Shown piece after piece: positions 14,874 to 59,616 of a stretch of 64,000 nt of DNA. Source of the DNA: a virus. The notes under the pieces were generated by a model. It did not search any database and was not told the origin of the DNA. It saw nothing but the letters and a program-made list of their open reading frames with translations. The first letter of the stretch is position 1, and every line of letters starts with the position of its first letter. The position numbers and the translations under genes were made by a program. Where the stretch lies: positions 39,564 to 103,563 of IMG/VR virus record IMGVR_UViG_3300041409_000348; one strand, 5' to 3'.

Positions 14874-15788
14874 GTGCCCACTCCGGCATATTCCAGCCTT
14901 GACGGCCCCCGGGTCACAGTCGACGCCCTGCTCAAGGACCCGCTGGTCATTCCCGCGCTGATCCTCGACATGACCCAGAACGAGTTCATCGTCGACGCCG
15001 TGCTCCGGCAGGGTGGCCTCGCCACCTCCGGCGCCGTCCGCTACTCCGAGTCGACGCCGCTGTACGCCGACGACACCCCGGAGATCCGCGCCGAGTTCGC
15101 TGAGGTGCCGGTCGTGCCGACCAGCGTCGGCGTCCCGCGCGTGGTGTTCACCCACGAGCGCGCCATGGCGATCATGGTGTCCGACGAGATGCGGCGCCGC
15201 CAGGCCATCGACCCGGTGACGCGGCAGCTCACCCAGGTCAAGAACACGATGGTGTACTCCTGGAACCAGGCTTTCTTCTCGGCCGTGGTCGCCAACGCCG
15301 GCATCCAGACGCTGGCCGTGTCGAACCCGTGGGCCTCGAGCAACGCCACCATCCGCGGGGACATCGCCAACGCGGTGTATCTGGTCGAGAACGCTTCGAT
15401 CAGCAGCTCGATCAGCGGCCTGTCTCAGTTCCTCGGCTTCGAGGCAGACACCATGATCATCAACCACGGGACGAAGAACAGCCTGCTCCAGTCGTCCTCG
15501 TTCGCCGCGCCCTACATCGGGGATATTGCGTCGGAGTCGCTCCAGTACACGGGCGTGCTGCCTAATCGCATTTTTAATCTTGATGTAATGGTGAGCCGAC
15601 AGATCCCGGCCGGAAATGCCATTGTCATGCAGCGCAATAGGTGCGGCTTTATCGCCGATGAATTGCCCATGCAGGCTTCCCCGCTCTACAGGGATGAGCC
15701 GCGTAAGACACAGAGGTCGGACGTACAAAGGGCCAGCGCCATTGGGCTTGACCAACCTTTGAGTATCGTGCTGCTCAGCGGGGTATAA
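14874..15788 (+). CDS. major capsid protein
   Basis: 304 aa; strong SD AGGAG; position; HK97-fold-like C-terminus AIGLDQPLSIVLLSGV. Confidence 0.85.
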   Translation: MPTPAYSSLDGPRVTVDALLKDPLVIPALILDMTQNEFIVDAVLRQGGLATSGAVRYSESTPLYADDTPEIRAEFAEVPVVPTSVGVPRVVFTHERAMAIMVSDEMRRRQAIDPVTRQLTQVKNTMVYSWNQAFFSAVVANAGIQTLAVSNPWASSNATIRGDIANAVYLVENASISSSISGLSQFLGFEADTMIINHGTKNSLLQSSSFAAPYIGDIASESLQYTGVLPNRIFNLDVMVSRQIPAGNAIVMQRNRCGFIADELPMQASPLYRDEPRKTQRSDVQRASAIGLDQPLSIVLLSGV

Positions 15789-15913: not shown

Positions 15914-17149
15914 ATGCAGAATACCCCTGCCCGCAGGGTCTTCCTGGCGCGCAAGTGCCTAGATTGCCCGGTCCGGTTCACGCCCACAGGTGCCAAGCAG
16001 GTCCGCTGCCCGGACTGCCAGGCCGTGGAGAGCGCGAAGGTGGTTCGCGAGGCCCGCGCCCGGGAGATGATCCGCCGGAAGGCGGTCCGTGCGGAGGCCC
16101 GCCTCGCCGGTCCTCGCTGTTCCGTTTGCAGGGCACCTCTCCGCAAGAACAACACCATCGGCCGATGCCAGGAACACCGCTACATCGGTGAAGGCATGGG
16201 TGCCTGCACCCACTGCGGGAAGCCGGTCCGGCGCGACAACCAGAGCGGGTACTGCGAGGAGCACAAGTACGCCACCTCGCGCGCGCCGGTACGGTTCTGC
16301 GCCAGCAGTGAGGGCTGCGGCAGGCAGCTCCGGATAGACAACGAATCCGGCTACTGTGCGCGTCACTTCTCAGAGTCCCCTCTGTGGCGTGAATGCAGGG
16401 ACCGGTTCAACGCCAAACTGCGGGAGCAAAACCGCCTGCGCCCCGACGAGCGCCGGTTCTGCTCGGAGCCAAGATGCCCTAACCGGCTCCGCTCCGACAA
16501 CACCACCGGCCGCTGCGCGGGGCACGTCTATATCCCCGTGGACATGCCGGAATGCACTGTCGAGAGATGCACCAACCGCCTGACTGTGCGCAACACGACC
16601 GGCCGCTGCTGGGAGGAGCATCACGCGAAGTACTGGGTGGCTGAGCAGTGCGGCCACGTCGGCTGCGAGCAAATCCTGCACGAGGACAACAGCCTCGGAT
16701 ACTGCCACGAGCACCGCAGCGAGGCCGAGCAGCACCAGGAATACATGCGCGCCTACTACCAGAGCCGGAAGGCCGAGTTCCAGGCGTACGCGAAGGCGTG
16801 GCGGCTGGCCAACGGCGATGACCACCGCGCGGCTGTGCGCGCATGGAGCACTGCCAACAGGGAAGCCCGGCAAGCCATGCACGCCCGCCGGCGCACGCGC
16901 ATCAAAGTGGCCATGACTGATCTCGACCGGCAGCAGTCAGTCGCCCGCCGCAGGGACATCAAGAACAACCCCTGCTTCTACTGCGGGACCGCCGAGACTT
17001 CCGACACGGACCACTTCTTTCCGCTCGCCAAGGGCGGCACGGACCACTGGTGGAACCTCGTCCGCGCCTGCGACCCGTGCAATTCCCGTAAAAACGCCAC
17101 CTGCGGCACTGCGTTCCTGCTCCGCGCCGGTGGCCTGACCCTCACCTAA
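15914..17149 (+). CDS. HNH endonuclease with six tandem CCCH zinc-finger-like repeats
   Basis: C-terminal CFYCG...TDHFFPLAKGGTDHWWNLVRACDPCNSRK; repeats C..C...LR.DN..G.C..H. Confidence 0.88.
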   Translation: MQNTPARRVFLARKCLDCPVRFTPTGAKQVRCPDCQAVESAKVVREARAREMIRRKAVRAEARLAGPRCSVCRAPLRKNNTIGRCQEHRYIGEGMGACTHCGKPVRRDNQSGYCEEHKYATSRAPVRFCASSEGCGRQLRIDNESGYCARHFSESPLWRECRDRFNAKLREQNRLRPDERRFCSEPRCPNRLRSDNTTGRCAGHVYIPVDMPECTVERCTNRLTVRNTTGRCWEEHHAKYWVAEQCGHVGCEQILHEDNSLGYCHEHRSEAEQHQEYMRAYYQSRKAEFQAYAKAWRLANGDDHRAAVRAWSTANREARQAMHARRRTRIKVAMTDLDRQQSVARRRDIKNNPCFYCGTAETSDTDHFFPLAKGGTDHWWNLVRACDPCNSRKNATCGTAFLLRAGGLTLT

Positions 17150-30760: not shown

Positions 30761-33700
30761 ATCACGTTCGACGCCGGCAGCATCTCCGCGAAGCTCGAAC
30801 TCGACCGCTCCAGCTTCAACACCGGGCTGACCCAGGCGCAGGCCGACGCGGACAAGTTCAGCGGCAAGCCCATCCAGGCGAAGATCACCGCTGACGGGAC
30901 GCAGGCCAAGGCGACCCTGGATGACCTGCAGACGCGGGCCGATGCGCTCGGCAAGAAGGCCGGGACCATCACGGTCAAGGCGGACGCATCGCAGGCGGAC
31001 GCGACCCTGGACGCGACGTCGGCGAAAGCGGACGCGCTCGGCAAGAAGGCCGGCACGATCAAGGTCCAGGCCGACGCGAGCCAGGCCAACACCGAGATGG
31101 ACGCCACCGCCGCCAAGGCGGATGCGCTGGGGAAGAAAAACCCCACCATCACGGTCAAGGCCGACACGTCTGGTGCCAGTTCCGACCTGGACAAGGCCGC
31201 CGCGAAGGCCGATGCGCTGGGGAAGAAAACCGAGACGGTCACGGTCAAGGCCGACACGTCCGACGTCAGCCAGAAAATCTCCGATCTCACCTCGGGGCCG
31301 TTCTCGCTGCTGAAAACCGCGATCGTCGGCCTCGGCCCCGCCGCGGTCCCTGTCCTCGGCACGGTCACCGCCGCGGTGCTGCCGCTGTCCGCCGCGGTCG
31401 GGTCCGCTGCGGCCGGGCTCGCCGCGTTCGGGACCGTATCCAAACTGGTCCTCACCCAGGCCGGCACCGCCGCGACCGCGGCGTCCACCGCCCAGGCCAC
31501 TTACACCGCGGCCATCGCCAAAGCCGCCGGGCAGTACACCATCGCCTCCGCCGCCGCGAAAACCCACACCCAGCAGGTCGCCGCGCTCGCCGCCGAGCAC
31601 AAAGCCGACGCGACCGCTGCGGTCGCCCAGGCCGCCGCGCTGAGCACCGCCTACTCGGGTATGAGTTCCCAGCAGATCGCCCTGTCCAAGCAGGTCGGGG
31701 ACCTCGACAAGGCATACAAGGGCATGCTGACCTCGGTCACCCCCCTGGTGTCCTCCGCGCTGGTCCCGTGGATGAAAGACGTCCAGAACCTGCTCCAGTA
31801 CATCAAGCCGCTGATCAGCCCCGTCGCTGCCCTGTTCAAGTCCTGGGGGGACGAGCTCAACCGGTCGCTGACCGGCAACACAGCCAACATCACTAAGTTC
31901 ATGGACGCCTTCGCGGGCCGGTCCGCCACCAACATCCGCCTGTTCGGTGACGCCCTCGTGGAGTTCGCGAAAGGCGCCGGGTCGCTGATCCACGACGTCG
32001 CCCCCAATCTGGCGGGGGCCGCCGACGGGGTGCTGAAACTCGCGCAGTCGTTCGCGGCGTGGGCCGGGTCGCAGAAGGCCGCCGACGACATCAAGGCGTT
32101 TTTCTCGTGGGCGCAGACCAACGCCCCCACGGTCCGCAAATTCCTCGACGACCTGAACACCACCATCGGGCACCTGGTCATCGCGCTGGCGTCCGCCGGG
32201 CCCTCCGATCTGAAGGTGCTCACCGCTGGCCTGTCCGCCCTGGCGGCACTGCCCTCCGGGGCGATCGTCGCCATCGCCGACGGGTACGTGGCCCTGTCCC
32301 TCGGCCTGCGGGCCGCCGCGGTCGCCACGACCCTGTACGAGATCGCCTCCAAGGACGCCGCCGGCTACACGCTGCTGATGCGGATCCAGTTCGGGTTGCT
32401 GCAAGTCCAGGAGAAAGCGGTCGCGTTGTGGACGGGCCTGGTCACGGCGGCCACGTGGCTCGCTGACGCCGCCGAAACCGCCTACGTCGCCGTGATGCTC
32501 CTCGCCGACGCCGCGAGCCTCCCCCTCATCGTCGTGATCGGCGGGATCGTCCTCGCCGTCGCCGCCCTCGCGCTCGGCATCTACGAACTCGCCACCCACT
32601 GGAATACCGTCTGGCATGACATCCTCGCCGTCTCCCAGGACGTGTGGGGCTGGATCAAAAACAACTGGCCGCTGCTCACCGCGATCCTCCTCGGCCCCAT
32701 CGCCGTCGCCGTCCTGGAAATCGTCCAGCACTGGGACACCATCAAGGACGCCTTCTCCGCGGTCTCCGCGTTCATCGCCGCGGACTGGAAAGCGTTCACC
32801 AGTTCCCTCCTCGCCCCCGTCGCCGCGATCGTCCACGGAATCTCGGTCGCCTGGGCCGCGATCGAGGCCCCGTTCGAGGCTGTCATCGACTGGATCAAAA
32901 CCCACTGGCAGGACACCCTCGTCCTCCTGACCGGGCTCCTCGGCGTCGCGATCCTGGTCATCATCCACTTCTGGCCGCAGATCACCACCGCCGTCGAAAC
33001 GGTCTTCAACGGCATCGCGTCCTATTTCACGACGTGGTGGGCGACGGCAACCAGCCGGTTCACCGCCGCGGCGAACATCCTCAAAGGCGTCCTGACCGCC
33101 GCGTGGTCAGCGATCTCCACCGCCCTCAAGGCCGCCTGGGCGGCGATAGCCGCCTACTTCACGTCGTGGTGGAACGCCGAGGTCGCCTACTTCAAAGGCC
33201 CCATCACCGCCATCGAGAACGCCCTCAAGGCGGCGTGGTCGGCGATCACCAGCGTCGCGAAGACGGCGTGGGGTGCGATCTCGTCGTATTTCTCGTCGTG
33301 GTGGAACAGCGAGCTCAGCACGTTCAAGAACGACGCCGCCGCAATCGGAAATGCGCTAAAGGCAGCCTGGGACGCGATCGAATCCACCGCCAAATCGGTG
33401 TTCGGCGGGATCCTGACCTACTTCGGCGGCTTCTGGTCCGCCCTCAAAACCGGGTTCGCGACCGCCGTGTCCGGGGTGGCCACCGCCTGGAACAAGCTCG
33501 AGACGATCGTGAAGACCCCCGTCCAGTGGGTCGTCACCAACGTCTACGACAAGCTGATCATGCCGTTCTGGAACGCCACCGCCGGCGCGATCGGCCTCAC
33601 GAAACTCCCCAAGCTCGCCGGCGGCGGCATGGTCCCCGGCGGGTACAGCCCCGTCGACAACCAGCTCGTGTGGATGCGGTCCGGTGAAGGGGTCCTGCAG

Positions 33701-35080
33701 CCCGGTGCGGTGATGGCCCTCGGCGGGCCTGCGTTCATCGACGCCGCGAACCGCACCTACGGGGATGTCCCGGTCGGGTCCAGCGGCGCCGGCCATTACG
33801 CCTCCGGGGGGACCGCGCCGGGGAACGTGGGCCAGGGACTCCACACCGGCACCACCGCGGAGCCGTCAGGGAGCGCCCCAGCCGGTCTCGGGAGTATCGG
33901 CGGCATCCTCAGCGGCCTCGTCCACGACGCCGCCGGGGTCATCTCCGAGGTTGAGACCGGGGTCTTCGATGCCCTGTCCAGTGTCGGCACCAGGCTCATC
34001 GACGGTGCCGTGAAACTGATCCCCGGTAGCGGCGGTGTGGCCACGGCCATGCGGGACTACCCGCCGAAGATCTGGTCGGCGTTCCTGTCCTGGGTCACCG
34101 CCCACGCTGGGAACGGCGGGGATATCGTCAAGTACGCCGAAAGCTTCCTCGGGAAAATCCCCTACGTGTGGGGCGGCACCTCCCTGTCAAGCGCCGGCGC
34201 GGACTGCAGTGGCTTCACCGGCAGTGTGCTATCCCACTTCGGATACGACCCGCCGCGCACGTCGGAGGCGCAGGGCTCGTGGGTTAAACGGGCCGGCCCG
34301 CAAGCGGGCGGGCTCGCGTTCTACCACTCCCCGGCGGGTGGCGCCGACCCGGGCCACGTCGCGATCGTCGCCAGCGGGAGCCAGGTGGTCTCCCAGGGCG
34401 GCGGGATGGGCCCGAAGATGATGGCCCTGCACGCGATGCCGCTGCTGTGGACCGGTATCCCGCCGGGCGGGTTCAAGTCCGGCAGCGGCGGCGGGAGCAC
34501 CGCCATGGCGGGCGGCGGCAGCGCCAGCGCCAACCAGGCCCTCGGCCAGAGAATGGCCGCAGCGATGGGCTGGACCGGCGCGGAATGGGCCGCTCTGAAC
34601 GCCGTGGAAATGCGGGAGGCGGGCTGGTCGACCACCGCCAGGAACGCGAGTTCCGGCGCGTACGGGATCGCCCAGTTCATTTCGGGGCCGTCCGAGTATG
34701 CCCAGTACGGGGGCAGCAGCACGACGGCGGGCGGGCAGATCGCCGGGTTCCTGAACTACGTGAAAGAGCGCTACGGCGACCCCATCGCCGCCGAGGCTCA
34801 TGAGGCGCAGTACGGGTGGTATGACCAGGGCGGATGGCTGCAGCCCGGCATGACAATGGTCATGAACGCCACCGGGCACCCGGAACCGGTCCTCAACCCG
34901 GACCAGTGGGACCGGCTCACCTCCGCGGTCGGGTCCGGTGACGGGATCGGGGACAAGCTCGACCGGATCGCCGGGCTGCTCATGGCCGGGCCCCGCGCCA
35001 CCGCCGGTGGTGTGTCCGAGGTTCTGAACGGGACAGCGCACACGGCGTCATTCAGGGCCCGGTACCCGCGCAACAACTAG
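30761..35080 (+). CDS. tape measure protein with C-terminal NlpC/P60 and lytic-transglycosylase-like domains (probable ATC start)
   Basis: Frame open from 30755; TFDAGSISAKLELD N-terminus; Trp-periodic repeats; PYVWGG..DCSG..GHVAI; EAGWSTTARNASSGAYGIAQ. Confidence 0.9.
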   Translation: MTFDAGSISAKLELDRSSFNTGLTQAQADADKFSGKPIQAKITADGTQAKATLDDLQTRADALGKKAGTITVKADASQADATLDATSAKADALGKKAGTIKVQADASQANTEMDATAAKADALGKKNPTITVKADTSGASSDLDKAAAKADALGKKTETVTVKADTSDVSQKISDLTSGPFSLLKTAIVGLGPAAVPVLGTVTAAVLPLSAAVGSAAAGLAAFGTVSKLVLTQAGTAATAASTAQATYTAAIAKAAGQYTIASAAAKTHTQQVAALAAEHKADATAAVAQAAALSTAYSGMSSQQIALSKQVGDLDKAYKGMLTSVTPLVSSALVPWMKDVQNLLQYIKPLISPVAALFKSWGDELNRSLTGNTANITKFMDAFAGRSATNIRLFGDALVEFAKGAGSLIHDVAPNLAGAADGVLKLAQSFAAWAGSQKAADDIKAFFSWAQTNAPTVRKFLDDLNTTIGHLVIALASAGPSDLKVLTAGLSALAALPSGAIVAIADGYVALSLGLRAAAVATTLYEIASKDAAGYTLLMRIQFGLLQVQEKAVALWTGLVTAATWLADAAETAYVAVMLLADAASLPLIVVIGGIVLAVAALALGIYELATHWNTVWHDILAVSQDVWGWIKNNWPLLTAILLGPIAVAVLEIVQHWDTIKDAFSAVSAFIAADWKAFTSSLLAPVAAIVHGISVAWAAIEAPFEAVIDWIKTHWQDTLVLLTGLLGVAILVIIHFWPQITTAVETVFNGIASYFTTWWATATSRFTAAANILKGVLTAAWSAISTALKAAWAAIAAYFTSWWNAEVAYFKGPITAIENALKAAWSAITSVAKTAWGAISSYFSSWWNSELSTFKNDAAAIGNALKAAWDAIESTAKSVFGGILTYFGGFWSALKTGFATAVSGVATAWNKLETIVKTPVQWVVTNVYDKLIMPFWNATAGAIGLTKLPKLAGGGMVPGGYSPVDNQLVWMRSGEGVLQPGAVMALGGPAFIDAANRTYGDVPVGSSGAGHYASGGTAPGNVGQGLHTGTTAEPSGSAPAGLGSIGGILSGLVHDAAGVISEVETGVFDALSSVGTRLIDGAVKLIPGSGGVATAMRDYPPKIWSAFLSWVTAHAGNGGDIVKYAESFLGKIPYVWGGTSLSSAGADCSGFTGSVLSHFGYDPPRTSEAQGSWVKRAGPQAGGLAFYHSPAGGADPGHVAIVASGSQVVSQGGGMGPKMMALHAMPLLWTGIPPGGFKSGSGGGSTAMAGGGSASANQALGQRMAAAMGWTGAEWAALNAVEMREAGWSTTARNASSGAYGIAQFISGPSEYAQYGGSSTTAGGQIAGFLNYVKERYGDPIAAEAHEAQYGWYDQGGWLQPGMTMVMNATGHPEPVLNPDQWDRLTSAVGSGDGIGDKLDRIAGLLMAGPRATAGGVSEVLNGTAHTASFRARYPRNN

Positions 35081-47484: not shown

Positions 47485-47595
47485 ATGCACTGGTGCTGGA
47501 ACTGCGGTCGTTACGGGCCGCCATCGCGTGTCAAAGGCTGGTGCCAGTCCTGCCTAAAAGCATGGCGGCCCGCCGTCAAGGAGGCCATCCGATGA
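47485..47595 (+). CDS. zinc-ribbon micro-protein (36 aa) coupled to endolysin
   Basis: SD AGGGGAG; CWNC...CQSC; ATGA overlap. Confidence 0.5.
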   Translation: MHWCWNCGRYGPPSRVKGWCQSCLKAWRPAVKEAIR

Positions 47596-48629
47596 CCGCG
47601 AGCGCGCAAGGCATCGACGTCTCGTCGTATCAGCCTGACCAGACTGCCAGCGGACTGGGGAAATACAGCTTCGCGTTCTGCAAGGTCAGCGAGGGCCTGG
47701 CCGGCACCGACCCGCACCTGCCCGCGAACTGGGCCGCGATCAAGGCGGCAGGCATCCACCGCGGCGGGTATCACGAGTTCCACCCGTCCGGAGACCCCGC
47801 CGCGCAGGCCCGCCACTTCGTCGCCGCCGCGAAAACTCAGGGCCTCGTGCCCGGCGACATGCTCGCGGTCGTGGCCAGCGACTACGCGGGTGTCACCTCG
47901 GCGATGATCCGCACCTGCTGCGATGAGGTCGCCGCACTGGCGGGCCCGCACTGCCCGGTGCTGGTCTACAGCGACCTGTCCGTGGCACGCGGTCTCACCA
48001 CCTGCACGAAGTATCCGCTGTGGATCGCCAATCCGGCCAGCAGCGCCCCGCAGGATGTGTCCCCGTGGCCGCGGTGGATGTTCTGGCAGTGGTCGTGGAC
48101 CCCGGAAGACCAGGACGCATTCAACGGGACCGCGGCCAGCCTGAGCGCGTGGATCGCCGGCTACACGGGCGGGAACACGCCCGCCGCACCCGCCGCCACT
48201 GTCGCGGGCTGGCTTGCGCAGGGCCAGAAGTCCCTCGCCGACCTGTGCTCCGGGTCGCTGCACAACGGCGTGTCCACGGTGCTCCGCCTCACCGCCGAAC
48301 GCAGCCCGGGTGCCGTCTACGCCCCCGCGCTGGCGACGTACCTCAACGGGGTGTTCGCCGCCGACAAGGCCGTGATCCCGGCCGGGGTGGTGCTGTTCTA
48401 TCCCAAGGGCAGCGGAGACGAGGCGTTCACGTCCCGCGGCGATCAGACGCTGCAGGGGCTGGCGAACACGTGGCACTGCGAGTGCTCCGCGATCGTCCGG
48501 CTCACCGCCGAGAAGTCGCCGGGGTCGGTTTTCTCCGGCGCCATGGCCACCTACCTGGATGGGGTTTTCCAGCGTGCGGCCAGCGGGCCGAAAGTCCCGG
48601 TCGGCGTCCACCTGTACTACGAAACGTGA
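47592..48629 (+). CDS. endolysin, GH25 muramidase with two C-terminal repeats
   Basis: GIDVSSYQ, FAFCKVSEG, RGGYH, WMFWQW...DQDAFNG. Confidence 0.88.
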   Translation: MTASAQGIDVSSYQPDQTASGLGKYSFAFCKVSEGLAGTDPHLPANWAAIKAAGIHRGGYHEFHPSGDPAAQARHFVAAAKTQGLVPGDMLAVVASDYAGVTSAMIRTCCDEVAALAGPHCPVLVYSDLSVARGLTTCTKYPLWIANPASSAPQDVSPWPRWMFWQWSWTPEDQDAFNGTAASLSAWIAGYTGGNTPAAPAATVAGWLAQGQKSLADLCSGSLHNGVSTVLRLTAERSPGAVYAPALATYLNGVFAADKAVIPAGVVLFYPKGSGDEAFTSRGDQTLQGLANTWHCECSAIVRLTAEKSPGSVFSGAMATYLDGVFQRAASGPKVPVGVHLYYET

Positions 48630-49520: not shown

Positions 49521-49805
49521 TTATCTTGCGGCCCCGGCCTGGATGCGGCTGAGGAACGCGCCCCACCCCTCCGGAGTGACCTCCAGAACCGGGCCGGGAT
49601 CCTTGCTGTCACGGACCCCGACGACACCGGCACCGTTCCCGGCCTCCACGCACTGCCCGTTAGCGACGCTGTGGGTGGCTTTGCGCCAGTCCGCTACCTC
49701 CACGCACGCACCCTGGCTGTTGCTGCGGGTGCTCTTGCGCCAGGCCGCCACCTCGACGCACTGGCCGCTGGCGGTGCTTCGGGTGCTCTTACGCCATGAG
49801 TTCAT
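49521..49805 (-). CDS. DUF397 protein with triplicated N-terminal motif
   Basis: WRK(S/A)T.S....CVE x3 then VGVRDSKDP.GPVL...W.AFL. Confidence 0.92.
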   Translation of the reverse strand: MNSWRKSTRSTASGQCVEVAAWRKSTRSNSQGACVEVADWRKATHSVANGQCVEAGNGAGVVGVRDSKDPGPVLEVTPEGWGAFLSRIQAGAAR

Positions 49806-49811
49806 CGCGGA

Positions 49812-49940
49812 TCAACCGTAACGGAGCACAGGCTCGAACGGCGTGTCCATGACGTTGTTCCACGCGAGCTGGATGGGGCCGTTGGTGAGAGTGCAGGGCC
49901 CGTTGGAGAACGAGTTGCCCCGCAGGGCTTCCGCGCTCAC
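49812..49940 (-). CDS. micro-protein (42 aa)
   Basis: GTGA coupling to upstream peptide gene. Confidence 0.4.
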   Translation of the reverse strand: MSAEALRGNSFSNGPCTLTNGPIQLAWNNVMDTPFEPVLRYG

Positions 49941-50089
49941 CCGTCGAAGACGTGGTTCGGGTTGGCGTGGAGTCCCGCAGCCGCAGCGACCGGGGCCGCC
50001 GAGGAAACCGCCGTCGCGACGGACACGCCAGCGACGCTGCCTGCCGCCGCGAGCGACAGAGCGACCGCCGCGATTCGCCTCTTGATCAT
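49937..50089 (-). CDS. secreted micro-peptide precursor (50 aa)
   Basis: SD GGGAGG; MIKRR + hydrophobic signal; polar tail LHANPNHVFDG. Confidence 0.7.
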   Translation of the reverse strand: MIKRRIAAVALSLAAAGSVAGVSVATAVSSAAPVAAAAGLHANPNHVFDG

Positions 50090-50293
50090 GATTCCTCCCG
50101 GATGGGTGAAACTTTGGCCATTTGACGGGATTATGGCACACATGGCAGGCATGGCCTAGACCCCCGGGGAGGGTGTGTGGTGTCACCGTCCAGGCGGAAT
50201 GTTCCCGGTTCCGTATCCGGGTCGTTGCTCGCAGTGCTTAGGCTCGGCTGGTGGACATGCCCGGACCCCGGGCCCTCAAAGCGGAGGTATGTG

Positions 50294-51562
50294 ATGCGGT
50301 GGCGGCCGATCTCGTGGAAGTCAGCAGTACACCTCGACCGGCGCCCGGCACGGACATCCCTGATAGGGCCACCCGCGGCCTGCCCCGTGGATCCGCCGGC
50401 TTTACTGCCACCGCATCTGCCGGAGCCGGTGGTGCTCCGGGACAGCCTCGCCGGGATGAACGGCGGCGCGCAGAAGGTCGCCGGGGACTTCTACGCCACC
50501 CTGTTCCGGTACCACCCGGAACTGCGGGACATGTTCCCCGCGATGATGAACAACCAGAACGAGCGCCTGTTCGGGGCGCTGCTGAACATCGTCAAACTGC
50601 TGGACGCACCGGACCAGCTCGCCCGGTACCTGAGCCAGCTCGGCGCCGACCACCTGAAGTACGGGGTCCGGCCCGAGCATTACGCCCCGGTCGGGCAGTC
50701 GCTCCTGGCCGCGCTGCGGCACAACTGCCCCGCCCTGGACGAGCGGGCCGAGGCGGGCTGGCTGGCTGCCTACACGTTCGCGGCGGGGGCGATGATGGCG
50801 GGCGCGGAAACGCACCGCGGTCCGGCGGTCTGGCACGGGCGGGTGATCCGGCATGAACGCCGGTCCCGGGACCTGGCGGTCCTCGAGGTGGAGACGAACG
50901 AGCCGCTGCCGTATCTCGCGGGCCAGTTCGTGACTGTGCAGACCGCGAAGTGGCAGCGGGTGTGGCGGCCGTTCTCGATCGCGAACGCCCCCGCGCAGGA
51001 CGGCAGCAGGATCACCCTGCATGTGCGGTCCATCCCCGGCGGGTGGGTGTCCACCGCACTGGTCCGCGACACCAGGGACGGCGATGAGCTGATCATCGGC
51101 CCGGCGACGGGCACCATGACCAGCGATCAGGTCAGCGACCGGGACCTGCTGTGCGTCGCCGGCGGTACGGGCCTGGCACCGGTCAAGGCTGTCGTGGAGG
51201 ACGTGCTGCGCGGCGACGAGGCAGCGGTGGCGGGCGGGTACGGGATGCGCCGCAACATTCACCTGTTCCACGGGGCGAAAACCCCGCTGGAGCTGTACGA
51301 CATGCCCGCCCTGCATGAACTGGCCCACGCCTACCCGTGGCTGCGGGTCATCCCCGTCGTATCGGACGATCCGGCCTTCTCGGGCCGTCAGGGGTATGTT
51401 TCGGACGCTGCCCTCGGTTACGCTGACTGGTCGGACGCGGAGGCGTTCGTCGCAGGCCCAGCCAGCATGGTGGGCCTGACCGCTGACGGCTTGTGCAAAG
51501 CGGGCATGGCAGCCAGCCAGGTCCACCGCGACGACCTCGAGGTGACCAAGGCAGTTGCTTAG
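50294..51562 (+). CDS. flavohaemoglobin-like protein (globin + FAD/NAD(P)H reductase)
   Basis: FYATLF..HPELRDMFP; LGADHLKYGVRPEHY (proximal His); WRPFSIAN; GWVS; AGGTGLAP; AGP; SD GGAGG 50283-50287. Confidence 0.92.
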   Translation: MRWRPISWKSAVHLDRRPARTSLIGPPAACPVDPPALLPPHLPEPVVLRDSLAGMNGGAQKVAGDFYATLFRYHPELRDMFPAMMNNQNERLFGALLNIVKLLDAPDQLARYLSQLGADHLKYGVRPEHYAPVGQSLLAALRHNCPALDERAEAGWLAAYTFAAGAMMAGAETHRGPAVWHGRVIRHERRSRDLAVLEVETNEPLPYLAGQFVTVQTAKWQRVWRPFSIANAPAQDGSRITLHVRSIPGGWVSTALVRDTRDGDELIIGPATGTMTSDQVSDRDLLCVAGGTGLAPVKAVVEDVLRGDEAAVAGGYGMRRNIHLFHGAKTPLELYDMPALHELAHAYPWLRVIPVVSDDPAFSGRQGYVSDAALGYADWSDAEAFVAGPASMVGLTADGLCKAGMAASQVHRDDLEVTKAVA

Positions 51563-52685
51563 CTTCCGGCGCAGAACCCCCGAGCCCACGGGGATACCGG
51601 CCGTGGACATGGCCGAAGCCGAGGACTTCATCCGCGGGTTCCACTCCGCCACCCCCGGCGCCGGTGACACGGGCCGGCGGGTCCGCGAGGCCAGGGAGTC
51701 CATCGCCGCCACCGGGACCTACACCCACACCCTGCCGGAGCTGACGTACGCGGCCCGGGTCGCGTGGAGGCACGCCGGCCGGTGCGTGGGCCGGGACAAG
51801 TGGCGGTCGCTGCGGCTCCGGGACAAGCGGGACGTGTCCGCCCCCGCCAGCGTCGCCGCCGAGGTCATCGGGCATCTGCGGGAAGCCACCAACGGGGGAC
51901 GGATCCGCTCCACCATCACCGTATTCGCGCCGGACACACCACACCGCCGCGGCCCCCGCATCCTCAACAGCCAGGCCATCCGCTACGCCGGCTACCAGCA
52001 GCCGGACGGCGTGCTCGGCGACCCCGCGAACCAGCAGCTCACCACACTGGCGCTGCGGCTCGGCTGGGAGCCGGGCAAGAGCCAGTTCGACATTCTGCCG
52101 CTGATCATCCAGGGACCGGACGGGGGCCTGTCAGCCTGGACGATCCCCGGCGACGCGGTGCTGGAGGTGCCGATCAGCCACCCCGGCTACCCGTGGTTCA
52201 CCGAACTGGGGCTGCGCTGGTATGCGCTGCCGGTGATCTGCGACATGTACCTCGACGCGGGCGGCATCCGCTACCCGTGCTCACCGTTCTCCGGCTGGTA
52301 CATGGCCTCCACCGAGGTCGGCGTGCGGGACCTGGGGGACGTGGACCGCTACAACGTCCTCCCTGATGTAGCCAAAGGGATGGGCCTGGACACGGCCCGG
52401 CTGGACACGTTCTGGAAGGACCGGGCGGCGGTCGAGCTGGCCGACGCGGTTCACCGCAGCTACCGGGCGGCCGGGGTGATGGTCACCGACCATCAGACCG
52501 AGGCGGCCCGGTTCGCCAGGTGGGCGACGGCCGAGGAGAAAGCCGGCTGCCCGGTGTACGCGGAGTGGGCGTGGATGGTCCCGCCGATCAGCGGCAGCAC
52601 GACCCCTGTTTTTCACCGGGCCTATCCGGATCGGGTGATCAAGCCGGGATACTTCCGGCACGAGGATCCGTTCCCCAGCCGGTGA
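51555..52685 (+). CDS. nos: nitric oxide synthase oxygenase
   Basis: AWRHAGRCVGR (haem Cys), IRYAGY, GDPAN, FDILPL, WYALP, PFSGWYM..TEVGVRDL.D..RYN, WMVPPISGSTTPVFH. Confidence 0.95.
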   Translation: MLSFRRRTPEPTGIPAVDMAEAEDFIRGFHSATPGAGDTGRRVREARESIAATGTYTHTLPELTYAARVAWRHAGRCVGRDKWRSLRLRDKRDVSAPASVAAEVIGHLREATNGGRIRSTITVFAPDTPHRRGPRILNSQAIRYAGYQQPDGVLGDPANQQLTTLALRLGWEPGKSQFDILPLIIQGPDGGLSAWTIPGDAVLEVPISHPGYPWFTELGLRWYALPVICDMYLDAGGIRYPCSPFSGWYMASTEVGVRDLGDVDRYNVLPDVAKGMGLDTARLDTFWKDRAAVELADAVHRSYRAAGVMVTDHQTEAARFARWATAEEKAGCPVYAEWAWMVPPISGSTTPVFHRAYPDRVIKPGYFRHEDPFPSR

Positions 52686-52733
52686 CGGATACGGGAACGT
52701 GTCAACGGTCAATGTCATGGCCTGTGACATTCG

Positions 52734-52991
52734 TCAACGTCGCTGGTCACGAGCCTGGGCTTTCGCCCAGGCCGCGCGGAATTCGGGGTCGTTTTTGAGG
52801 CTCTCTTCGATGAATTGGTCCAGGTCGTCAGGACCGTCCGGCAGCACGTCCCGAATGTCTTTCCACGCAGCGTTCATGTCGTCGGCCACGGTGACGTCCG
52901 GGGGTAGCGGTGGCTTGAGCGAGCCAGTGAAGTCCATCAGGTGAGCCATGCCCCGAAAGAACGCCCGAGCCTGCTGTCTGAAGGTAAGCAC
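52734..52991 (-). CDS. hypothetical protein
   Basis: Plausible ORF, DPEFRAAW tail. Confidence 0.5.
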   Translation of the reverse strand: MLTFRQQARAFFRGMAHLMDFTGSLKPPLPPDVTVADDMNAAWKDIRDVLPDGPDDLDQFIEESLKNDPEFRAAWAKAQARDQRR

Positions 52992-56372: not shown

Positions 56373-56999
56373 TCAGTCCAGCCGGTAACGCCACGAGCGG
56401 GAATCGGGGAACCCGAGCAGGCGCGCGGTCCCGGCCCGCTCCGCCCGCCGCTGCCCCACGATGATCACAGCCACGAAAAAGTCAGCGACCGCCAGGTACA
56501 GCGGATACAGGACACCCGTGACCGTGATCTCCGCCGCAGCCAGCGTCAGCGTCGCCCCGGCCCCGAACAGCAGGTACACGAACCACGGCTCCTCCCGCGG
56601 CTCATCCCACGCATGCCGGATCGTCGGCAGATACGCCGCCAGGTCAGCGGCAGCAGCCACGATGACGGTCGCGGCGGGGGAGCGCACCACCATGAGCAGC
56701 ACCAGGCCGGCGGTCACCGCGGTCAGGCTCAGCACGTCCAGCCATGTCACCGTCCAGTCCCCGCGCCGCAGCGACAGCACCGTCACCGTCCCGCACGCCG
56801 CCGCGCAGATCCCCGTATAGAGGGCGCTCGGGTACTGGCCGGTGACGAACGACGCGAACGTGACCTCGGCCAGCAGCGCCGCCCACGCCCCCCACGAGAC
56901 CACCTCAGGGCGGGCGGTACCCCGCAGGGTGCACACCACGTACATGACCGAGGCGACCAGGGTCAGCAGGTCCCCGGCGCCGACCTCCGCCCAGCTCAC
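56373..56999 (-). CDS. multi-pass membrane protein
   Basis: About 7 hydrophobic segments; PTIRHAW..P.EE. Confidence 0.75.
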   Translation of the reverse strand: MSWAEVGAGDLLTLVASVMYVVCTLRGTARPEVVSWGAWAALLAEVTFASFVTGQYPSALYTGICAAACGTVTVLSLRRGDWTVTWLDVLSLTAVTAGLVLLMVVRSPAATVIVAAAADLAAYLPTIRHAWDEPREEPWFVYLLFGAGATLTLAAAEITVTGVLYPLYLAVADFFVAVIIVGQRRAERAGTARLLGFPDSRSWRYRLD

Positions 57000-57478
57000 G
57001 CCATCGCCAGCAGCGACTCGGCGTGCCCGTCACCCCAGTCCACCACCCGGCACCCCGGATCGGTGCGCGCCCGCGCCACCAGCCACATCTCCAGCAGCCG
57101 CCCCGGCCGGTACTCCCGGAAACCCGGGACCATCTGCCCGGCCAGCACCCGGATCCCATCCGCGTCATAGCTGAACAGGTCCCAGGCGGCCAGGTCACCG
57201 CCGATCCGCAGCACCGCCAGCGCCCCAGCGGAGTAGAACAGGCGGTGGAACTCGTGCAGCTGGACCGGCCGGCCCGTCTCCACGTTGCGAGCCACGTAGG
57301 CGCGGGCCACCTCAGCCATGTACGGGCGCATCGCCTGCTGCCCCCGGTAAACCAGCGCCACCGCCCGCACACGGTCCCGGCTCAGGGCCCTCGCAGCCTT
57401 GCCGAGGTTGCGCTGCAAATCCCCGGACAAGGCCGGCAGACGGTCACCGACCTGCGTATATCGCTCCCCAGTGCTCAC
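56996..57478 (-). CDS. GNAT-like (Acetyltransf_6) protein
   Basis: LRIGGDLAA...FREYRPGRLL...VDWGDG. Confidence 0.6.
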   Translation of the reverse strand: MSTGERYTQVGDRLPALSGDLQRNLGKAARALSRDRVRAVALVYRGQQAMRPYMAEVARAYVARNVETGRPVQLHEFHRLFYSAGALAVLRIGGDLAAWDLFSYDADGIRVLAGQMVPGFREYRPGRLLEMWLVARARTDPGCRVVDWGDGHAESLLAMA

Positions 57479-57969: not shown

Positions 57970-58227
57970 ATGGGTCAGCTAACCGATCAGAACAACGAGC
58001 CAGTGACCGATGCAGACCGGGAAGCGGCTGCGCGGCGCGCGGCGGACACCGACCTGGATCACTACATCGTCGTCCCGGCTAGCCCGTGGGGTGGGCAGCG
58101 GGCAACGTTCGGGCCAATGACCGAAGGTGCGGCCCGCGCCAAGCTGGACAAGTTCATGCCCCTGTACATGCCTGAGTGCCCGCCGAAGCTGCTGCGCCTC
58201 GTAGAGGACTACGAGGACGGCCAATGA
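57970..58227 (+). CDS. hypothetical protein
   Basis: SD AAGGA; ATGA coupling to recombinase. Confidence 0.6.
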   Translation: MGQLTDQNNEPVTDADREAAARRAADTDLDHYIVVPASPWGGQRATFGPMTEGAARAKLDKFMPLYMPECPPKLLRLVEDYEDGQ

Positions 58228-59189
58228 CCGACCTCGCGGCGACCACGCCGCTCGACGGCCGGATCATCACCCCGCAGATGGAACTCACCGCCCGGCTCAC
58301 TGCCGAGTGGTACGGGACTCTCGGCGAAGGCAACACCGCCGCCGCCTACGCGAACGACCTGAACCTGTGGCGCACCTGGTGCGAGGCGAACAGCATCGAC
58401 CCGCTCACCGCACGCAAGACCGACACCGGAAAATGGATCCGCGACCAGCAGGCCCGCGGATTCGCCAAACGGACCATCGCACGCCGCGTCTCAGCGGTCT
58501 CCGCCTGGTATGAGTTCCTCCACGAGGAAACCGCCAACTCCCCTGTCGTTCTGGCCGCCGAGAACCCGGCACACACCCGGAAACGCCCAAAGGTCGCTAG
58601 GGACGACTCACCGACGCTCGGCCTGAGCAAAGCCCACGCCCGTCAGCTCATCCTCGCGGCCGACGCCGACAGCCTCCGCAGCGGTGCGCTGATGCGCTTC
58701 CTGCTCGGCAACGGCCTGCGGGTCGGGACCGTCGTCAGCGCCCGCATCGAGGACATCGCCGAAGACGACGGGCATCATGTGATCTTCCTGCGCGGCAAGG
58801 GCGACGTCCGCCGCAAGGCACCCATCCCCCCGCCCGGCTACAACGCGATCACGAAGATGCTCGCCGAACGCGGCCACCCTGCGGAGGGCCCGCTATTCGC
58901 TACCTCGACCGGGCGGCCGGTCGACCGCCATTACATCTTCCGTCTCGTCCGCCGCCTATCCGTCCGGGCAGAGATCCCGTCCGCAGCGCACCTGTCCCCC
59001 CATTCGCTGCGTCACTCGTTCGCCACCGAAGCGCTCAAGCGCGGCGTGTCCCTGCACCAGCTCCAGGACGACATGTGGCACGCCGACTCACGGACGACCG
59101 AGATTTACAACCGGGCCCGGAACCGGCTCGACAAGAGCGCCGCCTATGTGGTGGCCGGCGAGTTCGAGCCGGTGACTGATGACGAGTGA
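58224..59189 (+). CDS. tyrosine recombinase (XerC/D-like)
   Basis: GLRV, GKG, PHSLRHSFAT, WHAD..TTEIY catalytic residues; SAM-like N-domain. Confidence 0.93.
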   Translation: MTDLAATTPLDGRIITPQMELTARLTAEWYGTLGEGNTAAAYANDLNLWRTWCEANSIDPLTARKTDTGKWIRDQQARGFAKRTIARRVSAVSAWYEFLHEETANSPVVLAAENPAHTRKRPKVARDDSPTLGLSKAHARQLILAADADSLRSGALMRFLLGNGLRVGTVVSARIEDIAEDDGHHVIFLRGKGDVRRKAPIPPPGYNAITKMLAERGHPAEGPLFATSTGRPVDRHYIFRLVRRLSVRAEIPSAAHLSPHSLRHSFATEALKRGVSLHQLQDDMWHADSRTTEIYNRARNRLDKSAAYVVAGEFEPVTDDE

Positions 59190-59616
59190 GCCGCACGATT
59201 TCAGCCCGGCGTGCTGGTCCTGGCCGCCACCGACGGACGCCGACCGGGAGCGTGTCCGCACGCTGTACAAGTCAGCTATCGACCAGCTCGGGGACGGCAT
59301 ACTGCCCGCCCTGGTGATGTCCGACTGGCAGCAGGAACGCTGCGCGGTATGCGGCGGGCAGGGTGCCCCCGTGGAGGACCACGACCACGGCACTGGCCTT
59401 GTCCGTGGCTACCTCTGCCGCGGCTGCAACGTGGCCGAGGGGATGAACCGTTACGCCGGGCGCGTGTGGCGGGAGTACCGGGAACGCAACCCCGCGTCCA
59501 TCTGCGGCGTGGTCGAGCGGTACTGGGATCCGCTCACGAAGGAGTTCGCCGAGCCAGCCGAGCCGCTCTCGGCTGACCGCTGGAAGAACCACCCGATGCG
59601 CGGCGTCGGCCTGTGA
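59179..59616 (+). CDS. endonuclease VII domain protein
   Basis: CAVCG...EDHDHGTGLVRGYLCRGCN. Confidence 0.85.
   Translation: MTSEPHDFSPACWSWPPPTDADRERVRTLYKSAIDQLGDGILPALVMSDWQQERCAVCGGQGAPVEDHDHGTGLVRGYLCRGCNVAEGMNRYAGRVWREYRERNPASICGVVERYWDPLTKEFAEPAEPLSADRWKNHPMRGVGL

What the first reader, a model, noticed from the sequence alone, without database searches (positions are those of the whole stretch)
50294..52685. Phage-encoded nitric oxide module: flavohaemoglobin + NO synthase oxygenase operon
Seen: two overlapping (8 nt), apparently intact genes just after the lysis cassette, flanked by phage genes on both sides. The NOS keeps the haem Cys (RCVGR), the substrate Glu and pterin Arg (TEVGVRD) and WMVPP...TPVFH. 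The partner has a globin with proximal His plus FAD (RPFS) and NAD (GGTGLAP) motifs. Established: bacterial NOS oxygenases normally lack a reductase and borrow one; flavohaemoglobins turn NO into nitrate; the Synechococcus syNOS fuses globin, oxygenase and reductase. Inference: this is a split, self-contained Arg-to-NO(-to-nitrate) system carried by a phage. It could tune host NO-sensitive regulators (Wbl/NsrR/DevS-type), protect against oxidative stress, or act as a lysis/lysogeny signal. I know of no described phage NOS, but could not search.
Basis: partly seen in the sequence, partly recalled or inferred. Interest (0 to 1): 0.93.

Follow-up and report, generated by a model that had tools for sequence, protein, structure and literature searches.

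The report
Phage nitric-oxide synthase plus flavohaemoglobin cassette
A complete 103-kb virus of soil actinobacteria carries an intact two-gene unit, an enzyme that makes nitric oxide next to a haemoglobin-flavin protein that most likely burns it to nitrate. The same unit sits in several unrelated phages, and I found no published report of it.

Summary
Window 50294-51562 (+) encodes a globin + FAD + NAD flavohaemoglobin-like protein. It overlaps by 8 nt a full-length bacterial NOS oxygenase at 51555-52685 (+, Pfam 439 bits). All catalytic residues are intact.

The window is the 3' 64 kb of a 103,563-bp IMG/VR genome with terminal repeats. That genome has terminase, portal, capsid, tape measure, GH25 endolysin, tyrosine integrase and a WhiB gene, so the phage context is real.

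The same cassette, in the same order and overlapping or abutting, lies in three other high-GC viral records. They share almost no other genes with this phage.

The pair is not phage-only. About half of the 80 closest actinobacterial NOS loci have a homologous globin-reductase within 6 kb, mostly convergent. In 201 sampled genomes, 20 of 21 with NOS also have this family, yet 25 have it without NOS.

The phage partners form one clade. The phage NOS clade also holds one bacterial lineage, so the two genes have different histories.

Best reading: a buffered NO generator (Arg to NO to nitrate) used to alter host physiology. A role for the partner as the NOS reductase is not excluded. No enzymology was possible.

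This scan reported the same cassette earlier on three other genomes.

The parts
50294..51562 (+). Flavohaemoglobin-like partner gene (globin + FAD_binding_6 + NAD_binding_1). It is 422 aa from ATG 50294, or about 376 aa if it starts at GTG 50429/50432.
   Evidence: Pfam domains. Weak NCBIfam Hmp match, 102 bits against a cut-off of 432. Invariant F66-Y67 (B9/B10), Q88 (E7), H120 (F8), Y130, R225..S228 and G290-P296 in alignment A4. AF2 model with pLDDT 80, whose best PDB folds are flavohaemoglobins 6o0a, 1gvh, 4g1b and 1cqx at TM 0.63-0.77. SD GGAGGT lies before 50294. A 98%-identical 422-aa cluster is in the protein database. GC3 of the N-terminal extension is only 0.73.
51555..52685 (+). Bacterial-type nitric oxide synthase oxygenase gene, 376 aa. 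The TTG start overlaps the partner's stop by 8 nt.
   Evidence: PF02898 at 439 bits. Alignment to eNOS, gsNOS and bsNOS structures at E 1e-93 to 1e-106. Present: Cys77 thiolate, Glu254, Arg258, Trp338/Trp340 and Ile228 at the Val/Ile position. There is no Zn/N-terminal hook and no reductase domain. These residues are invariant in A1-A3.
50153..50293 (.). Divergent intergenic region upstream of the cassette; a presumed promoter and operator region. It extends to 50428 if the partner starts at the internal GTG.
   Evidence: It lies between the minus-strand small ORF 49937-50152 and the partner start. No sigma-70-type consensus was found, so its function is inferred only.
52751..52773 (+). GC-rich hairpin 66 nt after the NOS stop; a candidate terminator closing the two-gene unit.
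   Evidence: Fold of 52670-52800: MFE -57.8 kcal/mol, z -2.79 against shuffles. Coordinates. The T-run lies about 20 nt further on, so this is not a canonical intrinsic terminator and the pattern scan did not call it.
47493..48629 (+). Context: GH25 endolysin upstream of the cassette.
   Evidence: phrog_291 endolysin at 84 bits. Glyco_hydro_25 at 75 bits.
58176..59189 (+). Context: tyrosine integrase 5.5 kb downstream. The cassette sits in the lysis-to-integrase interval where temperate phages commonly carry accessory (moron) genes.
   Evidence: Phage_integrase at 89 bits plus the SAM-like N domain. Confirmed.

Best explanation
This is a phage-borne accessory cassette, transcribed as one unit with translational coupling, that gives the infected or lysogenised actinobacterium a buffered source of nitric oxide.

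- The NOS oxygenase oxidises L-arginine to citrulline and NO. Electrons come from host flavoproteins, as for other stand-alone bacterial NOS, and possibly also from its partner.
- The partner is a flavohaemoglobin-fold protein that keeps the Tyr-B10 / Gln-E7 / His-F8 pocket of NO dioxygenases. It uses NAD(P)H, FAD and O2 to turn surplus NO into nitrate.
- The net chemistry resembles the fused syNOS enzyme (Arg to NO to nitrate), split over two genes.
- The phage most likely uses the low, self-limited NO flux to reset NO-sensitive host or phage Fe-S regulators (WhiB-like proteins; this phage encodes one) or host respiration and stress tolerance. The cassette lies between the lysis genes and the integrase, which suggests lysogenic conversion.

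Shown: gene identity and intactness, residue conservation, phage context, recurrence in unrelated phages, and the link between the two families in chromosomes.

Inferred: every enzymatic step, the electron route, the timing of expression and the physiological target.
For: - Domains and residues.
- The partner's predicted fold matches flavohaemoglobins over about 390-400 columns.
- The genome is complete, with terminal repeats, and has TerL, portal, major capsid protein, tape measure, endolysin and integrase.
- The same cassette, in the same order and overlapping or abutting, is in G001, G002 and G003. These share only 4-10 proteins with this phage. G002 has its own portal, TerL, protease and a baseplate wedge subunit.
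- The phage partners form one clade at 99-100 SH-aLRT. They share an 8-10 aa insertion in the NAD domain.
- The partner family also occurs in 25 of 180 sampled genomes without NOS. Its named members are annotated flavohaemoprotein or NO dioxygenase. It therefore has a job of its own, consistent with NO removal.
- 20 of 21 NOS genomes have the partner family (odds ratio 124, Fisher p 3e-14). About half of the closest chromosomal NOS loci have it as a neighbour.
- WhiB-family genes are present in G000 and G002.
- Precedents: syNOS couples a globin to NOS and yields nitrate (PMC6104048). A NOS-Hmp axis governs fitness in staphylococci (PMC10594633).
Against: - There is no biochemical or expression data.
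- The partner scores far below NCBI's Hmp equivalog cut-off (102 against 432 bits). It has RPFS instead of RxYS. It belongs to an actinobacterial subfamily whose activity I could not tie to any tested enzyme. The actinomycete 'type II' flavohaemoglobins are reported as disulfide and D-lactate oxidoreductases rather than NO dioxygenases (PMC8883573).
- Making NO and destroying it at once looks futile unless nitrate, or a small steady-state NO level, is the goal.
- The co-occurrence statistic is not corrected for phylogeny.
- No promoter was found, so expression during lysogeny is only a positional argument. G002 has no detectable integrase.
Confidence: 0.55

Rival explanations
1. The partner is chiefly the dedicated reductase of the phage NOS, giving a self-sufficient two-component NO synthase. 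Electrons would flow from NAD(P)H to FAD to the globin haem, acting as a one-electron relay, and then to the NOS haem. Any NO dioxygenase activity would be secondary. The phage brings its own reductase so that NO output does not depend on host flavodoxins.
For: - Tight translational coupling is conserved in all four high-GC phages.
- The phage-type partner is a separate clade with its own conserved insertion and a Pro-rich N-terminal extension.
- The reductase half is closest in sequence to GcoB, a reductase that feeds a haem-thiolate P450 (5ogx). It also resembles the BenC, Fre and CarAd-type reductases.
- In other bacteria NOS oxygenase is fused to the same FAD_binding_6 / NAD_binding_1 module. 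The fusion usually goes through a 2Fe-2S domain, and in one case (P0252, 669 aa) it is direct.
- 20 of 21 NOS genomes have the partner family.
Against: - The family occurs without NOS in 25 of 180 sampled genomes. In the even sample it is unlinked to NOS.
- Most chromosomal neighbours are convergent, not co-transcribed.
- The distal Tyr-B10 and Gln-E7, needed for NO and O2 chemistry but not for an electron relay, are invariant.
- No NOS-globin fusion appeared among the 120 best longer NOS proteins.
- Established knowledge, not tested here: stand-alone bacterial NOS work with non-dedicated host reductases.
Confidence: 0.27
2. The cassette is passenger DNA without a phage function. It would be either a recent capture of a host chromosomal NOS region or an assembly chimera joining host and phage reads.
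For: - The two families are frequent chromosomal neighbours in Actinomycetota.
- The nearest bacterial NOS is 64-66% identical, as close as the other phage copies.
- Read continuity could not be checked.
- One other 'viral' NOS (G004, GC 43%) lies beyond an integrase near a contig end and may be host flank.
Against: - The record closes on itself with terminal repeats, and phage genes lie on both sides.
- Cassette GC and GC3 match the phage.
- The cassette's arrangement and its partner clade are phage-specific and recur at different genomic positions in unrelated phages, including a second record with terminal repeats.
- Near-identical proteins (96-98%) occur in other assemblies.
- All catalytic residues are invariant across copies that have diverged to 52-67% identity, which indicates purifying selection.
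Confidence: 0.08
3. NOS supplies NO for nitration or another secondary-metabolite reaction, like TxtD with TxtE in thaxtomin or RufN with RufO in rufomycin synthesis. The partner would serve that chemistry.
For: By established knowledge, the characterised actinobacterial NOS are of this kind. The host phylum is right (WhiB, DUF397, GC 69%).
Against: No cytochrome P450 is found anywhere in G000, G001, G002 or G003. No NRPS or other biosynthetic gene lies next to the cassette. The invariant companion is a flavohaemoglobin-fold protein, not a P450.
Confidence: 0.03

Closest known systems
Stand-alone bacterial NOS oxygenases (Geobacillus gsNOS 2flq; B. subtilis bsNOS 1m7v, 2an0, 2amo; actinobacterial NOS of Nonomuraea, Microbispora and Streptosporangium)
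   Same: Single oxygenase domain of about 360-380 aa. It has the haem thiolate Cys, the substrate Glu, the pterin Arg and Trp pair, and Ile at the Val/Ile gate. It has no zinc hook and no fused reductase. It is 50-57% identical to named actinobacterial NOS.
   Different: It is encoded by a phage. It belongs to a long-stemmed clade (SH-aLRT 100) made of phage and phage-like contigs plus one uncultured bacterial lineage. It is translationally coupled to a globin-reductase gene. It has one extra residue before the substrate Glu (GWYMASTE against GWYMSTE in eNOS), as do its actinobacterial relatives.
Flavohaemoglobins / NO dioxygenases (E. coli Hmp 1gvh, R. eutropha FHP 1cqx and 3ozu, yeast 4g1b, Malassezia 6o0a)
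   Same: Three-domain order of globin, FAD and NAD. The predicted fold superposes over about 390-400 columns at TM 0.63-0.77. FY at B9/B10, Gln E7, His F8, Tyr G5 and a Glu in the H helix align. The GGxGxxP NAD motif is present.
   Different: Only 18-20% identity. It fails the NCBIfam Hmp equivalog cut-off. It has RPFS instead of RxYS. The reductase half is nearer to GcoB, BenC and Fre in sequence. The phage type has an 8-10 aa insertion after the NAD motif and a disordered Pro-rich N-terminal extension.
syNOS of Synechococcus PCC 7335 (PMC6104048)
   Same: It combines a globin with a NOS oxygenase and a flavin reductase. The proposed net reaction is arginine to NO to nitrate.
   Different: syNOS is one polypeptide with a mammalian-type (flavodoxin plus FAD_binding_1) reductase. 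Here there are two genes, the reductase is FNR/Fre-type, and it is fused to the globin rather than to the oxygenase. No globin-NOS fusion was seen among the close longer homologues.
Chromosomal NOS + globin-reductase neighbourhoods of uncultured soil Actinomycetota and Streptosporangiaceae MAGs
   Same: The same two protein families are adjacent. NOS is 54-66% identical and the partner 38-51% identical.
   Different: The chromosomal pairs are mostly convergent with a gap of about 19 nt, or several kb apart. Their partner lacks the phage-type insertion and sits in a different clade. AU tests reject a common clade of the phage and L006-type partners (p 0.003).
Fused bacterial NOS with a 2Fe-2S and FNR-type reductase (architecture of the Sorangium scNOS type; cyanobacterial EF-hand forms)
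   Same: NOS oxygenase is served by a FAD_binding_6 / NAD_binding_1 module through a one-electron carrier.
   Different: Those are single chains of 1060-1200 aa with a BFD-like 2Fe-2S domain. Here a globin haem stands where the Fe-S domain would be, and the proteins are separate.

Membership tests
Bacterial NOS oxygenase (PF02898) | Full-length match to the NO_synthase model above the gathering score | tested here: met
   439 bits against a cut-off of 22.7, model positions 7-360 of 362; 438.7 bits in the genome search.
Bacterial NOS oxygenase (PF02898) | Haem thiolate Cys in the RCxGR motif; substrate-binding Glu; pterin-contacting Arg and the WxW..PP pair | tested here: met
   Cys77, Glu254, Arg258 and Trp338/Trp340 align to the eNOS residues. 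They are invariant in A1, A2 and A3.
Bacterial NOS oxygenase (PF02898) | Bacterial type: no N-terminal zinc/pterin hook, no fused reductase, Ile at the Val/Ile gate near the haem | tested here: met
   The alignment starts after the eNOS zinc-Cys region. The protein is 376 aa with a single domain. Ile228 sits in PVICD where eNOS has PAVSN (the position was assigned by my own residue counting from the alignment).
Bacterial NOS oxygenase (PF02898) | Arg- and O2-dependent formation of citrulline and NO | not testable with these tools
   Needs enzymology.
Flavohaemoglobin / NO dioxygenase (Hmp, FHP) | Globin + FAD_binding_6 + NAD_binding_1 in one chain, with the flavohaemoglobin fold | tested here: met
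   Pfam. AF2 model at pLDDT 80 and pTM 0.77. The top six PDB matches are flavohaemoglobins at TM 0.63-0.77.
Flavohaemoglobin / NO dioxygenase (Hmp, FHP) | Distal Tyr-B10 and Gln-E7; proximal His-F8 with its Tyr-G5 and Glu-H23 partners | tested here: met
   The alignment to FHP 3ozu and 1cqx places FY, Q, H, Y and E at these positions. F66, Y67, Q88, H120 and Y130 are invariant in 25 sequences.
Flavohaemoglobin / NO dioxygenase (Hmp, FHP) | Orthology to Hmp by NCBI's equivalog model NF009805 | tested here: not met
   102 bits against a cut-off of 432. The protein has the architecture and fold of a flavohaemoglobin but is not an Hmp orthologue.
Flavohaemoglobin / NO dioxygenase (Hmp, FHP) | RxYS FAD motif and GxGxxP NAD(P)H motif | tested here: inconclusive
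   GGTGLAP is present and invariant. The FAD motif reads RPFS (Phe for Tyr) in the phage type and some chromosomal members, and RxYS in most chromosomal ones.
Flavohaemoglobin / NO dioxygenase (Hmp, FHP) | NO + O2 + NAD(P)H to nitrate activity | not testable with these tools
   Needs enzymology.
Type II flavohaemoglobins of actinomycetes (MtbFHb Rv0385; PMC8883573) | D(x)8GxxP motif in the reductase domain; two conserved Cys; confined to actinomycetes | tested here: inconclusive
   DLLCVAGGTGLAP fits D(x)8GxxP. The Cys in it is not conserved among phage copies, and I saw no second conserved Cys. No MtbFHb sequence was available by reference, so no direct comparison was made.
syNOS-type globin-NOS | Globin, oxygenase and reductase in one polypeptide | tested here: not met
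   There are two ORFs in different frames with an 8-nt overlap. No globin-NOS fusion was found among the 120 best longer homologues.
Phage auxiliary (moron-type) gene cassette | Lies inside a complete viral genome, flanked by phage genes | tested here: met
   Terminal repeats and CheckV 100%. Endolysin upstream and integrase downstream.
Phage auxiliary (moron-type) gene cassette | Recurs in independent phage lineages and is kept under selection | tested here: met
   G001, G002 and G003 carry it at different genome positions. Catalytic residues are invariant at 52-67% identity.
Phage auxiliary (moron-type) gene cassette | Expressed during infection or lysogeny, with an effect on the host | not testable with these tools
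No transcript data were available.

The most novel reading that the evidence does not exclude
The phage-type globin-reductase is a true second subunit of NOS. Its flavin reduces its own haem, which both relays single electrons to the NOS haem and oxidises excess NO. That would be a self-powered, self-limiting NO generator, and the first defined physiological reductase of a stand-alone bacterial NOS. Unrelated actinophages trade the cassette. They would use the NO pulse to switch host and phage WhiB-like Fe-S regulators and so control development or the lysis-lysogeny choice. At least one bacterial lineage would have taken its NOS back from phages.
Probability: 0.2. Interest if true: 0.88.

Novelty: new variant of a known kind. 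Interest (0 to 1): 0.72.

Why it matters
Nitric oxide synthase has been studied as an animal and bacterial enzyme. In the sources I could search, I found no description of a virus-encoded one.

A conserved NOS plus flavohaemoglobin cassette moving between unrelated soil phages would add NO signalling or NO stress to the known ways phages reprogramme hosts. It would also add arginine-to-nitrate conversion to virus-driven nitrogen chemistry in soil.

The cassette also offers a clean, two-protein system for an old open question: what delivers electrons to stand-alone bacterial NOS. It can further show whether NO synthesis and NO dioxygenation are deliberately coupled, as in syNOS. The strong link between the two families in actinobacterial genomes suggests the answer would apply well beyond phages.

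Tried and rejected
I could not inspect the contexts of the closest database proteins: the 96% NOS on a 16-kb contig and the 70-75% pair on a 151-kb contig.
No read-continuity or expression test was possible, and read laying was not used.
- Complex prediction (NOS alignment A3 + partner alignment A4 residues 45-422 + 2 haem + FAD) gave no verdict: score 0.00, controls not run. This counts neither for nor against binding.
- Megablast of 49-54 kb against INPHARED gave no match.
- An IMG/VR scan with the single NOS protein found nothing. The alignment-based scan was needed.
- Searches of the other NOS phages with this phage's TerL and capsid, and with phrog_2, found nothing. I read this as showing they are unrelated, after confirming their phage nature in other ways.
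- The sigma-70 promoter scan found no site, and only an irrelevant minus-strand terminator-like site.
- PHROG and Pfam scans of most small neighbouring ORFs gave no hits.
- The AU test on the full 121-row NOS tree did not finish. I repeated it on a 36-row subset.
- An apparent 774-aa fused ORF in L104 was rejected. The two hits are in different frames, and the long ORF is a high-GC artefact.
- The TxtD/TxtE-type nitration reading was rejected because none of the four phages has a P450.
- G004 (GC 43%, NOS 47% identical, no partner) was not counted as a phage cassette. It lies beyond an integrase near a contig end and may be host flank.
Full report
**What is there**

The window has 65-75% G+C throughout, with no compositional break at the locus. 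Two uninterrupted plus-strand ORFs occupy 50177/50294-51562 and 51555-52685.

- The first ORF carries Pfam Globin, FAD_binding_6 and NAD_binding_1.
- The second is a full-length NO_synthase oxygenase domain at 439 bits.
- The first gene stops at TAG 51560-51562.
- Residues upstream of Met19 of NOS are conserved in relatives, which supports the early start and translational coupling.
- The first gene has two plausible starts. ATG 50294 has GGAGGT 6 nt upstream, and a 98%-identical 422-aa protein is on record. GTG 50429/50432 has GGAG upstream.
- Third-position GC is 0.73 in 50294-50430 against about 0.90 in the core. The first 38 residues are disordered in the model. The shorter form is therefore at least as likely.
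- A GC-rich hairpin at 52751-52773 follows the NOS stop.

**Is the phage context real?**

The window is bases 39564-103563 of a 103,563-bp IMG/VR record. The record has direct terminal repeats and a CheckV completeness of 100%. I confirmed an exact 69-bp end overlap.

The window holds these genes:

| Gene | Coordinates |
|---|---|
| Large terminase | 3168-4877 |
| Portal | 6633-7985 |
| Major head protein | 14874-15788 |
| HNH endonuclease | 15914-17149 |
| Tape measure | 31097-35080 |
| GH25 endolysin | 47493-48629 |
| Tyrosine integrase | 58176-59189 |
| Endonuclease VII | 59179-59616 |

- A WhiB-family gene lies in the part of the genome outside the window.
- A triple-DUF397 gene lies just upstream of the cassette.
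- These two genes, with the G+C content, place the host in the Actinomycetota.
- The cassette therefore sits between the lysis genes and the integrase of a temperate tailed phage.
- The arguments against a chimera are indirect: the closed genome, matching composition, and the recurrence described below.

**Recurrence in other phages**

An alignment-based scan of IMG/VR found NOS in four more viral records. Three are high-G+C and carry a homologue of the partner directly upstream on the same strand, overlapping by 4 nt or abutting.

| Record | Size and completeness |
|---|---|
| G001 | 35.8 kb fragment |
| G002 | 165 kb, terminal repeats, 100% |
| G003 | 124.8 kb, 82% |

- All-against-all BLASTP shows that this phage shares only 4-10 proteins with them, the cassette included.
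- Its terminase and capsid find nothing in them.
- G002 is a phage in its own right. It has a portal (465 bits), terminase, prohead protease and baseplate wedge subunit.
- G003 has a 2702-aa tape-measure-like gene, and distant portal and endolysin homologues.
- The cassette lies at different places in each genome. In G003 it is inverted relative to nearly all other genes.
- In the protein database about 60 clusters of phage-type partner (52-98% identity, 432 bits or more) are separated by a score gap from the named chromosomal homologues (381 bits or less).
- At least 28 of these clusters sit on contigs whose lengths equal those of contigs carrying close NOS homologues. Eight of those contigs are 117-161 kb.

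**The pair is not a phage invention**

- All but one of the 80 best NOS loci in reference genomes are named Actinomycetota (one is a Gemmatimonadota MAG). They include Streptosporangiaceae, Nonomuraea, Microbispora and many soil MAGs, at 50-66% identity.
- About 40 of them have a partner homologue (38-51% identical) within 6 kb. It is usually convergent, with a gap of about 19 nt.
- Contigs of the closest such group carry ordinary cellular genes: LPG synthase, LysR, MFS, phosphoglucomutase, Ser/Thr kinase and hydantoinase.
- I sampled 201 genomes evenly from the class around Nonomuraea. The partner family (E 1e-90 or better) is in 45 and NOS is in 21.
- Twenty of the 21 NOS genomes have the partner family, although there it is unlinked. 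Twenty-five genomes have the partner without NOS.
- The odds ratio is 124 and Fisher p is 3e-14. This is not corrected for shared ancestry.
- The partner family thus has a role of its own, and NOS is almost never kept without it.

**Gene histories**

- On the partner tree all eight phage-type sequences form one clade (SH-aLRT 99-100), apart from every chromosomal one.
- On the NOS tree the four high-G+C phage copies, the phage-type metagenome copies and the closest database proteins form a long-stemmed clade (SH-aLRT 100). That clade also contains, nested, one tight bacterial group, the L006/L087/L091 type.
- AU tests reject a phage-only NOS clade (p 0.022; I named the group after seeing the tree).
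- AU tests also reject a joint clade of phage and L006-type partners (p 0.003).
- The simplest reading is one origin of the phage cassette, then spread among unrelated phages, plus an exchange of NOS alone between phages and that bacterial lineage. The direction of that exchange is undecided because the trees are unrooted.

**What the proteins look like**

NOS:
- It aligns over its full length to eNOS, iNOS, nNOS, gsNOS and bsNOS structures (E 1e-93 to 1e-106).
- It keeps the thiolate Cys77, Glu254, Arg258, Trp338/Trp340 and Ile228 at the bacterial gate position.
- It has no zinc hook and no reductase domain.

Partner:
- It aligns to FHP and Hmp with FY at B9/B10, Gln at E7, the proximal His, Tyr G5 and an H-helix Glu.
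- These residues, plus R..S and GGTGLAP, are invariant across 25 phage and chromosomal sequences.
- Its AlphaFold model (pLDDT 80, pTM 0.77) matches flavohaemoglobins best over the whole chain, at TM 0.63-0.77.
- It is not an Hmp orthologue (102 against 432 bits).
- It reads RPFS rather than RxYS.
- Its reductase half is closest in sequence to GcoB, a P450 reductase, and to the BenC, Fre and CarAd-type reductases.
- The phage-type proteins share an 8-10-residue insertion after the NAD motif.
- The motif DLLCVAGGTGLAP fits the D(x)8GxxP signature given for actinomycete 'type II' flavohaemoglobins (PMC8883573). I could not compare sequences directly.

**Mechanism**

I favour a buffered NO generator at 0.55. 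NOS makes NO from arginine, and the partner oxidises the surplus to nitrate. This is the split equivalent of syNOS (PMC6104048).

- The independent distribution of the partner family fits this reading, as do its invariant distal pocket and its annotation in named species.
- A functional NOS-Hmp axis is documented in staphylococci (PMC10594633).
- The main rival, at 0.27, is that the partner is the NOS reductase.
- The tight coupling, the phage-specific subfamily and the near-universal co-occurrence support the rival.
- So do natural fusions of NOS to the same FNR-type module, usually through a 2Fe-2S domain and in one case directly.
- The two readings are compatible with each other.
- A complex prediction gave no verdict.
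- Nitration chemistry is unlikely, since none of the four phages has a P450.
- What the phage gains is inference only. Candidates are NO-sensitive WhiB-like regulators (one is phage-encoded), effects on respiration, or stress protection of a lysogen.

**Novelty and caveats**

- I found no paper describing a phage NOS.
- INPHARED holds only two unannotated Staphylococcus records with a 41-44% NOS match.
- This scan reported the same cassette earlier on three other genomes, and the chromosomal module on a fourth. My results agree with those reports. They add the co-occurrence count, the incongruent gene trees with AU tests, the fused-form survey and the fold match.
- Some genomes are flagged as unpublished. 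G006, the genome of locus L006, contributes one row to the bacterial NOS clade and to the trees. G023 and G032 are two of the 201 sampled genomes.
- The conclusions do not depend on these three. Public metagenome contigs L087 and L091 represent the same clade, and removing the two sampled genomes leaves the association intact.

Noticed in passing
window 49521-49805 (-): A 94-aa protein made of three DUF397 repeats (PF04149, 105 bits) lies upstream of the cassette on the opposite strand, beyond the small ORF at 49937-50152. From my own knowledge, not tested here: DUF397 proteins are small and actinomycete-specific, often paired with XRE regulators in developmental loci. Homologues lie near the cassette in G001 (L002:17-289) and in one chromosomal locus (L081).
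   Followed up: partly
window 49937-50152 (-): A 71-aa ORF diverges from the cassette. It has a hydrophobic, Ala-rich signal-like core and a short polar tail, and no family match. Another first-stage note (e1-5978309) flagged it as a possible secreted peptide.
   Followed up: no
window 56996-57478 (-), 58176-59189 (+), 59179-59616 (+): A GNAT acetyltransferase, a tyrosine integrase and an endonuclease VII lie downstream of the cassette, so the phage is temperate. I did not look for attP.
   Followed up: partly
G000:C1:28242-28433 (outside the window; locus L151): A WhiB-family gene (82 bits) is in the same phage, and another is in G002 (L152). From established knowledge, Wbl Fe-S clusters react with NO, so these are candidate targets of the cassette.
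   Followed up: no
L005:9890-11080 (G004, 134-kb viral record, GC 43%): A low-GC viral record has a NOS only 47% identical, with no globin-reductase next to it. It lies about 20 kb beyond an integrase and near the contig end, so it may be host flank of a prophage rather than a phage gene.
   Followed up: partly
L158:4001-5101 (G210, 162-kb viral record, 100% complete): Another high-GC viral record carries a chromosomal-type globin-reductase (45% identical). It has no NOS anywhere on the record, so phages may also carry the flavohaemoglobin alone.
   Followed up: partly
Database proteins P0243, P0245, P0251, P0252, P0284: Unusual fused NOS forms appear among the longer homologues: NOS + MFS transporter (843-855 aa, 57% identical), NOS + GGDEF (673 aa), NOS + FNR-type reductase with no Fe-S domain (669 aa), and NOS + PF02390 methyltransferase (696 aa).
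   Followed up: no
L006, L087, L091 and relatives (metagenome and MAG contigs): One uncultured actinobacterial lineage has a NOS that groups inside the phage NOS clade, while its convergent partner gene groups with ordinary chromosomal ones. This suggests replacement or donation of NOS alone.
   Followed up: yes
window 31097-35080 (+): The 1327-aa tape-measure protein also matches an endolysin family and has a C-terminal transglycosylase-like segment. It appears to be a tape measure with a built-in wall hydrolase.
   Followed up: no
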